From Nitrospirota bacterium (GTDB lineage: Bacteria; Nitrospirota; UBA9217): a stretch of 64,000 nucleotides of DNA. The stretch spans positions 2,016,001 to 2,080,000 of the forward strand of contig CAVTRN010000002.1 of NCBI GenBank assembly GCA_963737155.1. The letters run 5' to 3'. Below the pieces are notes generated by a model. It had not been told where the DNA came from and searched no databases. It saw only the letters and a list, made by a program, of their open reading frames with translations. Shown here in pieces: positions 2,216 to 48,828 of this stretch; the first letter of the stretch is position 1, and every line of letters starts with the position of its first letter. Made by a program: the position numbers and the translations under genes.

Positions 2216-2391
2216 ACCACGAGGAGAGAATATTTGGATCGGGGAGGTTGTCGGAATGACACTTATCAAGTCTGCCTGCAATTGTCTACTTGCGTTTTTT
2301 GGCGGCTTGAACTGACCCCCTCTGTTTAGACAAATTATGTTAGACTATCAGGCAGGATCCCCGGCCCGGGATGGGCAGAAAGGATCTTGTC

Positions 2392-4110
2392 ATGAGAAAA
2401 CAGAGAAGTTTCAGCATCGAGTTCAAGCGCCAAGTAGTTGAAGAATATCTGAGCGGTGCCGGTACTGCGGCCCAGCTCTGCCGAAAACATAGCATTTCTT
2501 CCGGACTTTTATATCATTGGAGACGGCAATATCTTAAAAACAGCTTTGAAGCCGATTCAGCCCGGGAAGTTGCCCAGGAAGAACGGATTCGCCTATTGGA
2601 ACAGGCACTTGAAAAAGCCCACCTGGAGGTTGAGTTTTTTATAAAAAGCTCTGCATCAGAGCTTCGAACAGTCCCGGAAAAAAGGAAGTTCATTACCGAC
2701 AACCGAAACTTTATCGAAACCCTCACGAGGGGGTGCGAACTCATGAACCTCCCTCGAAGCAGTTACTACTATAAGCCGAAGCTCCGGGAGATATCTCCTG
2801 AGGACCAAGCCCTTATCTCGCGGATCGAAGGGCTCGCCGAGGACTTCGCTACGTACGGCTACCGAAAGATCACGGCTCAGTTGCGCCGGTATGGCATTGT
2901 GGTCAACCGCAAGAAAGTTCAGCGGATCATGCGGGAAAAGGGTCTTTTTGCGAAGAAGACTCGACGGTTCGTCAAAACCACAGACAGCAACCACCCTTAT
3001 CCCGTATACCCGAACCTGCTCAAAGGCCTGAAGGTGACAGGCGTCAATCAGGCCTGGGTTGCTGATATCACTTATAGTGCGCCCAGCCAACGATACCTGC
3101 CTGTATGGGGGTGAAGTTGCTTGAGCATGTTTGGAATGCATTCTCTAAAGATGTAATAGTGAGCATGCCCTCTTTCCGCTACGGGAAGGAGTGAGCCGAA
3201 GCGGCGGTGATTTGCCGAACACTGGCAAGGTGACGAAGCCCGCAGGAAACGGGACTTGCGGCGAAGCGGTTACGCCAAGATGAGTCTCTAGGATGAGCAC
3301 GGGACGGTTGAGGAACACGAACCTATTGAAATGCATCTGAGGGTTGAAATGTCACCCCTGCCTACACCGCTTAACAGGCAGGATGCGGATTGGCACCAGC
3401 CATATGTAGGGAGCTGGGCTGCGAATGTTGACTGGATGAGTGAGCTGGTCAGCAGGGAGCCTCGGGAAGTGCGTAGCTAAACTGAGGCATGCGCAACGAC
3501 TTGCGGTACGCAAGGATAAAGACTGCTATAGGCAACCTCGCCCGTGCGTTTGAGTCCAACATGTGAACTGGGGAAGGCTTGCACAGATGCTAAGGGAGTG
3601 TGTCCCCGATGATGTGCAAGCTGGCGGAGCCCTCGTAGTAGTCCTAGGCCGGGAAAGCCGGTCACATGGCGAAGGGGGGCAGTTCAAGCAGTTTGCTAGG
3701 CTGCTTAGCTGACTTTAATGAGGTGAAGACCTCTGATAATCAGTGAAATGCAAAGCAAGCAGGCGAAGAGATTTCGCTTTTGCATTGAGCAATGCTTGGA
3801 TGGAGAGCCGGATGCGCTGAGAGGTGCAAGTCCGGTTCGGAGAGGAGAGGTCGGGAAATAGCTCGACTACGCCCGACCTCTTACTCTACTCCGAATCGTT
3901 GCTTCCTTCGTTTACCTTGCCGTCATTCTGGACCTGTACTCAAGGAAGGCGATTGGATACGCCATCTCCCGGTCTATCGATACGGACTTAAGCCTTGCCG
4001 CGCTTCAGATGGCCATCGAAACAAGGAATCCCCGTGCCGGGCTGATCCATCACTCGGACCGGGGCGTGCAAATACGCAGCACACGACTACGTTGACGTAC
4101 TCACGAAGAC
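2392..4110 (+). pseudogene. IS3 transposase OrfAB, exons 2392-3076 and 3890-about 4110
   Basis: Joining the exons gives ...VNQAWVADITY-IRIVASFVYLAVILDLYSRKAIGYAIS...GLIHHSDRGVQ, followed by a +1 shift and truncation. Confidence 0.9.
3077..3889 (+). ncRNA. Group II intron ribozyme lacking a functional RT/maturase ORF (813 nt)
   Basis: 5' end GTGCG at 3077; domain V GAGCCGGATGCGCTGAGAGGTGCAAGTCCGGTTC at 3805-3838 with AGC triad; domain VI stem with bulged A3883; 3' end CTCTAC. Removal restores the transposase frame exactly (TAT A|TC CGA). Confidence 0.95.
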
Positions 4111-4126
4111 ATCTGATTATAATCAG

Positions 4127-4444
4127 TCAAATATGAGCGAACACTCGTAATCTTTTTATCTTTTTTATCTCCTTTGCACTTGGTGAATGCCTTACATGAT
4201 ATAGGTCCCAAGCTAACTGCAAATTAAGCCAAAACTGCGCCTCTATGCCGAATAGTTTTTCTAAGCGAAGTGCGGTATCTGGTGTTATACCCCGCTTTCC
4301 ATGAATTAACTCATTAACACGCGGATATGAAACCCCGAGTTTATCTGCTAAATCACTCTGCGTTATCTTAAGTGGTTTGAGAAACTCTTCCAATAGCATT
4401 TCGCCAGGATGCGTCGGCGGACCATTTTTAGGTATGCGAACCAT
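4127..4444 (-). CDS. higA: HigA family antitoxin (HTH)
   Basis: PTHPGEMLLEEFLKPL...RVNELIHGKRGITPDTALRLEKLFG..AQFWLNLQ..WDL. Confidence 0.95.
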   Translation of the reverse strand: MVRIPKNGPPTHPGEMLLEEFLKPLKITQSDLADKLGVSYPRVNELIHGKRGITPDTALRLEKLFGIEAQFWLNLQLAWDLYHVRHSPSAKEIKKIKRLRVFAHI

Positions 4445-48650: not shown

Positions 48651-48828
48651 TAACACGGCTTTTGCAGTCGCTGTCTACGTTTCACGCATAGTGTCGCCAC
48701 GGTGCATTCAAAACTAGATTCCGGCTGATGACCAGGCTTGTCCGGGCGGAATTGACAAGCCGCTGAATCAGCCAAAAAGTTTTCATCTTTCTACTGTTTC
48801 TCCCTTCCCCAGGCTTATCCTGGCGCGA
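48651..48828 (-). ncRNA. Degenerate 5' (domain I) fragment of a second group II intron
   Basis: Minus strand TCGCGCCAGGATAAGCCTGGGGAAGGGAG...AGCCTGGTCATCAGCCGGAA...GAAACGTAGACAGCGACTGCAAAAGCCGTG resembles recalled bacterial intron 5' domains; no DV/DVI or RT nearby. Confidence 0.55.

What the first reader, a model, noticed from the sequence alone, without database searches (positions are those of the whole stretch)
3077..3889. ORF-less group II intron with intact core motifs inside an IS3 transposase
Seen: GTGCG start, intact DV and DVI with branch A3883, and exact frame restoration just after the first catalytic Asp motif (ADITY|I). A CCAGC/GCTGG hairpin (3396-3417) presents TGTAGG (3405-3410), which pairs with the exon end CTTATA as EBS1-IBS1, and A3404 can pair with the first 3'-exon base T3890. 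Known: some bacterial group II introns home into IS3-family elements, and ORF-less introns can use a maturase in trans. Inference: a non-autonomous intron derivative parasitising an IS.
Basis: partly seen in the sequence, partly recalled or inferred. Interest (0 to 1): 0.7.

Follow-up and report, generated by a model that had tools for sequence, protein, structure and literature searches.

The report
Stranded protein-less intron in dead IS3
This is a real self-splicing-type (group II) intron that has lost its own protein gene and sits in a broken jumping-gene copy; it is a leftover of a known kind, not a new system.

Summary
Window 3077-3889 is an 813-nt group II intron: Rfam DV/DVI 62 bits, GTGCG start, branch A3883, exact IS3 frame restoration (ADITY|IRI).

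It is an ORF-deleted derivative of the E.c.I4-like (class A) lineage. That lineage homes into the D-I-T-Y codons of IS3-type transposases (PMC3522654, PMC3552965). About 1470 nt of the RT gene are missing from the tip of a domain IV stem.

The six-domain fold has strong covariation support.

This copy looks stranded:
- It is the only full copy in the genome.
- No cognate or intact RT/maturase was found.
- The host IS3 is frameshifted and cut at 4104/4105.
- The EBS2 loop and three invariant pairs are damaged.
- A same-genus copy at the same site keeps a broken RT gene and is colinear at 89.7%, so the ORF was lost in place.

Splicing could not be tested. Related ORF-less copies in metagenomes do appear mobilised in trans. 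This scan has met ORF-less introns in IS3 before, on other DNA. Known kind; low interest.

The parts
2308..4104 (+). Decayed IS3-family element that hosts the intron. The left end is near 2308. The right part is missing from 4105 on.
   Evidence: Other partial copies in the genome begin aligning at window 2306-2308. Pfam finds HTH_Tnp_1 and HTH_21 in the 5' exon and rve in the 3' exon. A duplicated higBA-like module starts exactly at 4105.
2371..3076 (+). 5' exon: the transposase reading frame up to ...WVADITY plus one base.
   Evidence: ORF 2371..3114. HTH_Tnp_1 E 5.5e-15 and HTH_21 E 7.2e-18.
3065..3068 (+). Probable IBS2 core (ATAT, exon positions -12 to -9).
   Evidence: Best register of the EBS2 loop against the exon across 47 sequences. 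Covariation is weak.
3071..3076 (+). IBS1 (CTTATA).
   Evidence: Pairs with 3405-3410 at six of six positions, two of them G-U.
3077..3889 (+). ORF-less group II intron, 813 nt, of the E.c.I4-like (class A) lineage.
3082..3572 (+). Domain I. The closing helix is 3082-3086 with 3568-3572.
   Evidence: RNAalifold consensus of 47 sequences and per-helix covariation counts.
3405..3410 (+). EBS1 (TGTAGG), in the loop of the hairpin 3396-3417.
3437..3442 (+). EBS2 loop position. It reads TGAGTG here, against TATGTA in the same-genus copy and the consensus, so it is degraded.
   Evidence: The window pairs x:x:|x with the exon. The loop differs from G003 at 4 of 12 positions (alignment).
3573..3625 (+). 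Domain II.
   Evidence: 11 pairs, 8 with compensatory changes.
3626..3626 (+). Gamma nucleotide (G550 of the intron), which pairs with the last intron base C3889.
   Evidence: G-C in 46 of 47 sequences and A-T in L064.
3629..3680 (+). Domain III. The pair 3645-3665 is broken (U.C) where 46 of 47 sequences have G-C.
3682..3801 (+). Domain IV without its ORF. The Shine-Dalgarno hairpin is at 3720-3733. The start-codon remnant ATG is at 3748-3750. The stem 3762-3767 with 3773-3778 is made from the first and last ORF codons.
3768..3772 (+). Deletion junction: a 5-nt loop where about 1470 nt of RT/maturase ORF stood.
   Evidence: Window positions up to 3768 match the ORF start of G003 and L020, and positions from about 3770 match the last ORF codons (D-V/F-A-F-A-M/L-S-N-A).
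3805..3838 (+). Domain V: AGC triad, GAGA loop and AA bulge.
   Evidence: Rfam alignment. The AA bulge is shared with L020, L030, L036 and with the second fragment in the same genome.
3841..3887 (+). Domain VI, with the bulged branch-point A at 3883.
   Evidence: 15 pairs, 9 with compensatory changes.
3890..4104 (+). 3' exon remnant: the rve core up to HHSDRGVQ, an apparent 1-nt frameshift near 4069-4073, then truncation.
   Evidence: rve E 5.2e-13. Three-frame translation and tblastn of the relatives' 3' exons.

Best explanation
Window 3077-3889 is an ORF-deleted copy of a bacterial group II intron of the E.c.I4-like (class A) lineage.

That lineage retrohomes into the codons for the D-I-T-Y motif (first catalytic Asp) of IS3-type transposases, guided by EBS1/EBS2 pairing with the exon. 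This much is shown by homology and covariation.

In the ancestor of this copy the composite IS3-plus-intron already existed with an RT/maturase gene in domain IV. Later one deletion removed about 1470 nt of that gene. The deletion sits at the tip of the stem that the first and last ORF codons form, so the ribozyme and the domain IV base were left intact. This is inferred from the colinear sister copy.

If the RNA were spliced, A3883 would attack G3077 and the exons would join to restore the transposase frame. In this genome that is unlikely. I found no cognate maturase and no other copy. The host IS3 is frameshifted and truncated. The intron shows near-neutral decay. I therefore read it as an immobile, probably unspliced molecular fossil. 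That last step is inferred, not shown.
For: Identity:
- Rfam DV/DVI match of 62 bits.
- 78-83% identity over intron positions 1-690 and 84-90% over the last 119 nt to full-length introns of about 2280 nt.
- RNAalifold on 47 sequences gives six domains. Of 249 predicted pairs, 226 are well supported and 126 of those show compensatory double changes.
- 95.7% of cells form standard pairs, against 37-41% when the 3' partner is slid by 1-3 columns. Pairs with compensatory changes number 123, against 2-9 in the slid controls.
- Gamma-gamma' covaries.
- EBS1-IBS1 covaries, with 0 of 2000 shuffles reaching the observed value.

Lineage:
- The same-genus copy (G003) carries an RT ORF at the same site.
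- 585 of 599 candidate stretches in genome contigs encode relatives of that RT, at up to 86% identity.
- One relative is the E. coli K-12 ykfC locus. MG1655 is listed with one E.c.I4 fragment, and E.c.I4 sits in IS3-like transposases (PMC3522654, passages).
- E.c.I4 and S.f.I1 are class A, a class without an En domain (PMC3552965, passages). The relatives' 505-aa IEP has RVT_1 and GIIM only.
- The target consensus is GAYATNACNTAYN|T in 47 sequences.

In-place ORF loss:
- The window and G003 align colinearly at 89.65% over 1237 nt spanning exon and intron.

Stranded status:
- Only one full copy exists, plus a 114-nt 3' fragment.
- The RVT_1 and GIIM searches and a tblastn found only a 31%-identical RT at C1:831276-832355. 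It is split between PQG and GVISP by a 354-nt insertion with inverted ends.
- The host IS is frameshifted near 4070 and cut at 4104/4105.
- The EBS2 loop has changed at 4 of 12 positions and lost its pairing.
- Seven of the 226 supported pairs are non-canonical in the window. Three of them are at pairs that are G-C or C-G in 44-46 of 47 sequences.
- 38 changes are derived on the window lineage against 19 on G003. Eight of the 38 fall on the 248 near-invariant positions (odds ratio 0.46, p 0.056).
Against: The ribozyme is still largely intact.
- 219 of 226 supported pairs are standard. That puts the window 30th of 47, tied with L048, and within the range of full-length relatives, which have 0-16 breaks.
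- Only 5 of 273 near-invariant positions deviate uniquely, within the relatives' range of 0-15.
- DV, DVI, gamma-gamma' and EBS1-IBS1 are all in order.
- Changes are somewhat depleted at invariant positions, which allows for some past constraint.

One bacterial ORF-less intron, C.te.I1, is reported to self-splice with no IEP gene in its genome (review PMC4424553, passages). Absence of a maturase therefore does not prove absence of splicing.

No expression or splicing data could be obtained.

The RT searches use a loose first look plus HMMER or BLAST, so a very divergent maturase could have been missed.
Confidence: 0.75

Rival explanations
1. The intron is still a working, non-autonomous element. 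It self-splices, or is spliced with host or heterologous help, so the transposase frame can be restored. It could be mobilised again if a class A IEP entered the cell.
For: The core is intact: DV, DVI, branch A, gamma-gamma' and six EBS1-IBS1 pairs.

96.9% of supported pairs are standard.

The domain IV base, which holds the Shine-Dalgarno and start-codon region, is kept. I recall from the literature, without testing it here, that this region is the usual IEP binding site.

Related ORF-less copies in metagenomes have moved between diverged IS3 genes. L109 and L116 are 96.5% identical in the intron but about 76% in the flanks. L113 and L118 are 99.9% identical in the intron but 89.6% and 72.2% in the flanks.

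C.te.I1 shows that an ORF-less bacterial intron can splice without a genomic IEP (PMC4424553, passages).
Against: No cognate IEP was found and there is no second copy in this genome.

Restoring the frame would be pointless, because the transposase gene is frameshifted and truncated downstream.

The EBS2 loop is degraded and three invariant pairs are broken.

The window lineage has accumulated twice as many changes as the sister copy.
Confidence: 0.2
2. The intron arrived at this site already ORF-less, by retrohoming in trans, as a member of a mobile ORF-less family. It did not lose its ORF in place.
For: ORF-less relatives of 781-831 nt sit at the same kind of site in metagenome contigs. For 14 of 31 contigs both intron ends were located. 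Some junction types recur in diverged hosts.
Against: The exon and intron are colinear at 89.65% with the ORF-containing copy of G003 in the same IS at the same site.

The window's junction sequence matches none of the 18 junction classes seen in the 31 contigs.

There is only one copy in the genome.
Confidence: 0.04
3. It is a chance resemblance, not an intron.
For: None beyond the general caution that short motifs such as GTGCG recur. Seven GTGYG sites lie within 3.5 kb.
Against: Rfam E 8.7e-10. Alignment end to end with dozens of full-length introns. Covariation controls.
Confidence: 0.01

Closest known systems
E.c.I4 / S.f.I1, bacterial class A group II introns of Escherichia and Shigella
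   Same: Both sit at a specific position in IS3-like transposase genes. IS629, IS911, ISEc16 and ISEc31 are named as hosts in PMC3522654 (passages read).

The IEP of the relatives has RT and maturase domains but no endonuclease domain (PMC3552965, passages).

The RT of the sister copy is 73% identical over 220 aa to the E. coli locus L061. L061 is the K-12 ykfC region, and MG1655 is listed with one E.c.I4 fragment (PMC3522654, Table 3).
   Different: The window copy has no IEP at all.

The host is a different bacterium, whose name I did not determine.

The closest ribozymes are from Nitrospirota, Acidithiobacillus and Burkholderiales records at about 82% identity, not from E. coli.

No labelled E.c.I4 sequence was available, so the class assignment is indirect.
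TeI3 ORF-less introns of Thermosynechococcus elongatus (Mohr, Ghanem and Lambowitz 2010, PMC2882425; passages read)
   Same: An ORF of about 1.5 kb is deleted from domain IVb, with remnants of the N- and C-terminal codons on either side. The ribozyme is kept.
   Different: The TeI3 introns are 17 copies from one deletion event. They are mobilised and spliced by IEPs of related TeI4 introns in the same genome.

Here there is one copy, no cognate IEP, a different intron class and a dead host gene.
C.te.I1 of Clostridium tetani, as described in the review PMC4424553 (passages read)
   Same: An ORF-less bacterial group II intron in a genome without a cognate IEP gene.
   Different: C.te.I1 is reported to self-splice robustly and lies in a functional gene.

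The window intron lies in a pseudogene, shows decay, and its splicing is untested.

Membership tests
Group II intron (ribozyme) | 5' end GUGYG and 3' end AY | tested here: met
   GTGCG at 3077-3081 and AC at 3888-3889. Most close relatives start GTACG.
Group II intron (ribozyme) | Domain V of 34 nt with an AGC triad, a 2-nt bulge and a GNRA loop | tested here: met
   RF00029 at 62 bits. The bulge is AA rather than AC, as in L020, L030 and L036.
Group II intron (ribozyme) | Domain VI with a bulged adenosine 7-8 nt from the 3' end | tested here: met
   A3883, seven nt from the end.
Group II intron (ribozyme) | Six-domain secondary structure supported by covariation | tested here: met
   226 of 249 pairs are supported and 126 have compensatory changes. 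Slid-partner controls give 37-41% pairing.
Group II intron (ribozyme) | EBS1-IBS1 and EBS2-IBS2 pairing with the 5' exon | tested here: inconclusive
   EBS1-IBS1 is met: six of six pairs, and covariation with p < 1/2000. EBS2-IBS2 in the window is reduced to one Watson-Crick and two G-U pairs around a mismatch.
Group II intron (ribozyme) | Catalysed splicing through a lariat | not testable with these tools
   No RNA run was listed for this DNA.
Bacterial class A (E.c.I4-like) group II introns | IEP that groups with E.c.I4 / S.f.I1 | tested here: inconclusive
   The window has no IEP. The sister copy's RT is 73% identical to the E. coli ykfC-locus intron fragment, which PMC3522654 lists as E.c.I4. 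No tree with labelled class representatives was built.
Bacterial class A (E.c.I4-like) group II introns | IEP without an endonuclease domain | tested here: met
   The 505-aa IEP of L020 has RVT_1 and GIIM only.
Bacterial class A (E.c.I4-like) group II introns | Homing site at a fixed position in IS3-like transposase genes | tested here: met
   The window and 46 relatives sit after GAYATNACNTAYN, with G at -13 and A at -12 in 47 of 47.
Mobile non-autonomous (TeI3-like) ORF-less introns | ORF deleted from domain IVb with terminal remnants kept | tested here: met
Mobile non-autonomous (TeI3-like) ORF-less introns | Several copies at different sites in the same genome | tested here: not met
   One full copy and one 114-nt fragment.
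Mobile non-autonomous (TeI3-like) ORF-less introns | A related IEP encoded in the same genome to act in trans | tested here: not met
IS3 family insertion sequence (host) | OrfA HTH domains plus an OrfB rve (DDE) core | tested here: met
   HTH_Tnp_1, HTH_21 and rve.
IS3 family insertion sequence (host) | Complete element with both ends and an intact DDE triad | tested here: not met
   Homology ends at 4104 and the frame shifts near 4070. No right end was found.

The most novel reading that the evidence does not exclude
The window intron may be one visible case of a wider, little-described pattern with two parts.

(a) In the E.c.I4-like lineage the RT gene is lost again and again by deletions that end at the tip of the stem formed by the first and last ORF codons. 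I saw 18 junction classes in 31 metagenome contigs, plus this one. The resulting 780-830-nt elements behave like MITEs and hop between diverged IS3 transposase genes using an IEP in trans.

(b) This particular genome holds several ORF-less group II introns of at least two lineages and no intact IEP. Among them are two copies of about 700 nt downstream of terminators that are 99.3% identical. Either an IEP was lost very recently, or these RNAs can be spliced or moved without a cognate IEP.
Probability: 0.3. Interest if true: 0.5.

Novelty: new member of a known kind. Interest (0 to 1): 0.25.

Why it matters
For this locus it matters little. It is a dead intron in a dead insertion sequence, and it should be annotated as such rather than as a gene or a regulatory RNA.

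There is some wider value. The 2015 review (PMC4424553, passages) calls bacterial ORF-less group II introns rare and nearly always accompanied by a related IEP. This genome, and the 31 metagenome contigs found with one pattern, suggest that ORF loss is commoner in the IS3-homing lineage. The deletion end points cluster at one stem, which would make the route of ORF loss testable.

Tried and rejected
Expression test. The look-up of sequencing runs for window 2300-4200 (kind rna) listed no RNA holder. This is no evidence either way.

Rfam domain I-IV models. At E up to 10 on 2900-4100, no group II D1-D4 family matched. Only RF00029 and weak plastid DV or D1 models did. Rfam therefore gave no subclass.

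Full-length alignment A1. It misplaced window 3771-3818 onto the 5' end of the ORF. I redid the 5' and 3' parts separately. The outputs were cut for length.

Exon-versus-intron pairing scan. My first scan was too permissive and gave mostly trivial G-Y or T-R matches. Only its exon base counts were used. Searches replaced it.

DV bulge AA as a defect. Rejected. The AA bulge is shared with L020, L030, L036 and with the second fragment in this genome.

IIA-type delta-delta' pair (A3404 with T3890). Neither confirmed nor excluded.

blastn of the 3' exon against the relatives' flanks found nothing. tblastn with their exon proteins worked.

Viral contigs held no ORF-less copy matching the pattern.

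Papers PMC2525955 (Simon et al. 2008) and PMC101233 (Dai and Zimmerly 2002) are not held. I cite them only as listed in other papers' reference lists and did not read them. Supplementary tables of PMC3522654 and PMC3552965 were not opened; they may give E.c.I4 coordinates and class membership that would make the class assignment direct.

None listed a paper on ORF-less class A introns, but this is a limited library.

Not done: a tree of IEPs or ribozymes with labelled class representatives, a survey of tertiary contacts beyond gamma-gamma' and the EBS pairs, and identification of the organism.
Full report
**What is there**

- The IS3-type reading frame runs ...GCT GAT ATC ACT TAT A and is broken after 3076 by a stretch that starts GTGCG at 3077.
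- The stretch ends ...CTTACTCTAC at 3889.
- The next bases, TC CGA ATC GTT..., complete the codon and continue ...ADITY|IRIVASFVYLAVILDLYSRKAIGYAIS.

Pfam finds HTH_Tnp_1 and HTH_21 in the 5' exon and the rve integrase core in the 3' exon. The rve match starts at profile position 22, so the interruption lies inside the catalytic core just after the first Asp motif.

Rfam's group II domain V/VI model matches 3803-3889 at 62 bits against a gathering score of 40, with E 8.7e-10. It is the only family over threshold in the whole window. The bulged adenosine of domain VI is A3883.

**Where it comes from**

Within its own genome (4.84 Mb, 2 contigs, rated 100% complete) the 813 nt occur once. A second match covers only the last 114 nt, at 92% identity, at C2:1696248-1696361. 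Just upstream of that fragment a tblastn finds the last 22 residues of an intron RT, so the fragment came from an ORF-containing copy.

Among 61 genomes searched (the window's own plus 60 relatives), 4 have a match. One genome of the same genus, G003, matches intron positions 1-692 at 90% identity.
- In G003 the intron sits after ...GATATCACCTATA, the same site of the same IS.
- After position 692 it continues into an RT reading frame (MQSKLAKWSTKEKE...).
- That frame is broken by a stop after ...VPQG and another after ...HITHVASR.

Using the first 220 residues of that RT, 599 stretches of the genome collection matched the search patterns and 585 encode relatives, with up to 86% identity. They come from Burkholderiales, Acidithiobacillus, Nitrospirota, Paenibacillus, Enterobacterales and others.

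The window intron aligns end to end with the ribozyme parts of these introns of about 2280 nt. Positions 1-690 align with, for example, L020 2836-3534. The last 119 nt align with L020 5005-5123. About 1470 nt, nearly the whole ORF, are therefore missing. The first seven codons or so (M Q S K Q A K) and the last nine or so (D F A F A L S N A) are still readable on either side of a 5-nt loop at 3768-3772.

**Which lineage**

The relatives' IEP is 505 aa with RVT_1 and GIIM domains and no endonuclease domain.

One relative (L061, 73% identity over 220 aa) is the E. coli K-12 ykfC region. Leclercq and Cordaux (PMC3522654, passages and Tables 2-3 read) list one E.c.I4 fragment in MG1655. [quoted passage not shown]

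Toro and Martinez-Abarca (PMC3552965, passages read) place E.c.I4 and S.f.I1 in class A, one of the classes whose IEP lacks an En domain.

The chain above supports it indirectly. I built no tree with labelled representatives, so I call the lineage E.c.I4-like (class A) with that reservation.

**Homing site**

I fixed exact boundaries for 47 relatives. One of them, L084, was then dropped because my ORF-start pattern missed it.

In the window plus the remaining 46, the 5' exon base counts are:
- G at -13 and A at -12: 47 of 47 each
- Y at -11
- A at -10: 38
- T at -9: 43
- A at -7: 45
- C at -6: 44
- T at -4: 46
- A at -3: 41
- Y at -2: 43

The first 3' exon base is T in 45. This spells GAY ATN ACN TAY N|T, the codons for D-I-T-Y. 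The whole lineage is a specialist of this conserved DDE motif.

**Structure**

I aligned the 5' and 3' parts separately, projected them onto the window's 813 columns and ran RNAalifold. In window coordinates the result is:

| Domain | Window coordinates |
|---|---|
| I | 3082-3572 |
| II | 3573-3625 |
| III | 3629-3680 |
| IV | 3682-3801 |
| V | 3805-3838 |
| VI | 3841-3887 |

Of the 249 predicted pairs, 226 are standard in at least 85% of sequences. Of those 226, 126 show compensatory changes on both sides.

As a control, sliding every 3' partner by 1 to 3 columns drops pairing from 95.7% to 37-41%. It drops the pairs with compensatory changes from 123 to between 2 and 9.

The projection onto the window's columns, and deriving the structure from the same alignment, both favour the structure somewhat. 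The margin is large even so.

The last intron base pairs with G550 (window 3626). This is G-C in 46 sequences and A-T in L064.

**Exon binding**

The loop of the hairpin 3396-3417 carries TGTAGG (3405-3410). It pairs with CTTATA (3071-3076) at six of six positions, two of them G-U.

In the same register, 17 of 47 sequences pair at all six positions, 17 have one mismatch, 8 have two, 3 have three, 1 has four, and 1 (gapped) has six. There are clear co-changes, for example L041 CGAATT with AATTCG and L082 CATAGG with CCTATG. Shuffling exons among sequences never reached the observed 230 of 276 paired positions (mean 202, maximum 219, 2000 shuffles).

A second loop (window 3437-3442) reads (N)ATGTA in most relatives and in G003. 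It can pair with exon positions -12 to -9. The support from covariation is weak. In the window this loop reads TGAGTG, so only one Watson-Crick and two G-U pairs remain around a mismatch. The loop differs from G003 at 4 of 12 positions.

The evidence is one co-change (L041) against two non-pairing cases (L052, L100).

**State of this copy**

Signs of integrity:
- 219 of 226 supported pairs are standard. The window ranks 30th of 47, tied with L048, and relatives range from 0 to 16 breaks.
- The window deviates uniquely at 5 of 273 near-invariant positions, within the relatives' range of 0-15.
- The AA bulge of domain V is shared with close relatives.

Signs of decay:
- Three pairs that are G-C or C-G in 44-46 of 47 sequences are broken only here. 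These are intron pairs 119-217 (G.A), 256-451 (U.U) and 569-589 (U.C).
- The EBS2 loop is degraded.
- I polarised the differences between the window and G003 with ten close relatives. The window lineage has 38 derived changes: 8 on 248 near-invariant sites and 30 on 444 variable sites (odds ratio 0.46, p 0.056). G003 has 19 (2 and 17), and 8 are ambiguous.
- None of the differences between the two copies is a compensatory double change.

This pattern is close to neutral drift.

**No helper in the genome**
- The RVT_1 search finds one gene only, at C1:831546-832601. The GIIM search finds that gene and a remnant with a stop at C1:876562-876771.
- A tblastn with the full 510-aa ORF translation of L020 (the 505-aa IEP plus five codons before its ATG) gives 31% identity to that same gene, a weak 77-aa match at C2:1042550, and the 22-aa remnant.
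- The C1 gene is split between ...GTPQG and GVISPML... by 354 nt full of stops, whose ends are inverted repeats.

I therefore found no intact group II IEP and none of the cognate lineage.

**The host gene is dead too**

After ...HHSDRGVQ the frame that fits IS3 proteins (YAAHDYVDVLTK) is shifted by one base near 4069-4073. I infer this from motif spacing, since tblastn also extends weakly in the old frame. All homology stops at 4104. From 4105 on, the sequence is a second copy of a module that also occurs at C2:2009642 and runs into the higA/higB-like genes.

The window and G003 align colinearly at 89.65% over 1237 nt, from window 2538 through the exon-intron border to 3768. The flanks outside the IS do not align. 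The composite IS-plus-intron therefore existed before the two copies diverged, and the ORF was lost later on the window's branch.

**Wider family**

I searched for a pattern that requires the conserved domain IV 5' block and domain V to lie 45-75 nt apart. It found 31 metagenome contigs and no viral contig.
- Their domain IV remnants fall into 18 classes at 90% similarity. None is the window's.
- In each one the remnant is a hairpin built from the ORF start (GGCGACAT-like) and the ORF end (ATGTCGCC-like). In full-length relatives these two segments pair and covary.
- For 14 of the 31 contigs both ends were located. Lengths are 781-831 nt and the exons match the same D-I-T-Y-type site.
- Copies with the same junction sit in diverged hosts. 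L109 and L116 are 96.5% identical in the intron but 76.2% and 76.6% in 260-273 nt of flank. L113 and L118 are 99.9% identical in the intron but 89.6% and 72.2% in the flanks.

This is what trans-mobilisation of ORF-less copies would give, as shown experimentally for TeI3 introns (PMC2882425, passages read). Recombination was not excluded.

**Comparison and verdict**

ORF-less bacterial group II introns, their origin by deletion in domain IVb, their mobilisation in trans, and group II introns inside IS elements are all in print (PMC2882425, PMC4424553, PMC3522654; passages read).

The review PMC4424553 calls bacterial ORF-less introns rare and nearly always accompanied by a related IEP, with C.te.I1 as the exception. 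The window copy is another unaccompanied case, but it lies in a pseudogene and is drifting.

This scan has already recorded several ORF-less group II introns inside IS3 transposases in other genomes. I did not check those notes.

I file the finding as a new member of a known kind. Interest is low. The family-level pattern of repeated ORF loss at one stem is the only part that might repay further work.

Noticed in passing
G000 C1:74867-75622 (minus strand), outside the window: A second decayed copy of the same IS3 5' half, 88.7% identical over 764 nt. It ends at GATATCAC|CTTTGGG, 3-5 nt before the intron insertion site, and unrelated sequence follows. A third piece of 113 nt lies at C1:1513935-1514046. 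No intact or intron-free copy of this IS was found in the genome.
   Followed up: partly
G000 C2:1696248-1696409 (minus strand), outside the window: A 114-nt 3' end of the same intron lineage (92% identical, domain V bulge also AA), preceded by the last 22 codons of an RT. It is the remnant of an ORF-containing copy cut at its 5' side.
   Followed up: partly
G000 C1:364819-365521 (minus), C2:1595630-1596332 (plus), C2:456975-457471 (plus), outside the window: A different ORF-less group II element of about 700 nt. Two copies are 99.3% identical over 704 nt, and a third is 91% identical over 500 nt. Each lies right after a hairpin plus T-run, the site type used by class C introns. No RT is nearby.
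   Followed up: partly
G000 C1:831276-833045 (plus), outside the window: The only group II RT gene of the genome is interrupted between PQG and GVISP by a 354-nt insert with inverted-repeat ends, which looks like a MITE.
   Followed up: partly
window 48653-48828 (minus strand): About 177 nt at 72% identity to the region some 2.3 kb upstream of domain V of the C1:83xxxx RT-encoding intron. This may be another intron fragment. Rfam reports no domain V there.
   Followed up: no
window 4105 onward, and G000 C2:2009642 onward: A duplicated module starts exactly where the IS3 homology stops and runs into the higA/higB-like genes on the minus strand (4127-4444 and beyond). The first 26 nt are identical in both copies.
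   Followed up: partly
window 2371-3076: In this IS copy the OrfA-type HTH domain and the OrfB-type HTH_21 domain lie in one continuous frame (ORF 2371-3114). The C1 copy has them in two overlapping frames, as is usual for IS3. The slippery-site region was not examined.
   Followed up: no
L098-L128 (metagenome contigs): 31 contigs carry ORF-less derivatives of the same lineage, in 18 junction classes. All the deletions end at the stem formed by the ORF start and the ORF end. In L109 and L126 a distant RT (28% identity) lies about 1 kb downstream.
   Followed up: partly
L018-L097 (genome records): Class A was described in 2013 as having only three almost identical members (PMC3552965, passage). 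One search found 585 stretches encoding relatives of this RT across several phyla.
   Followed up: no
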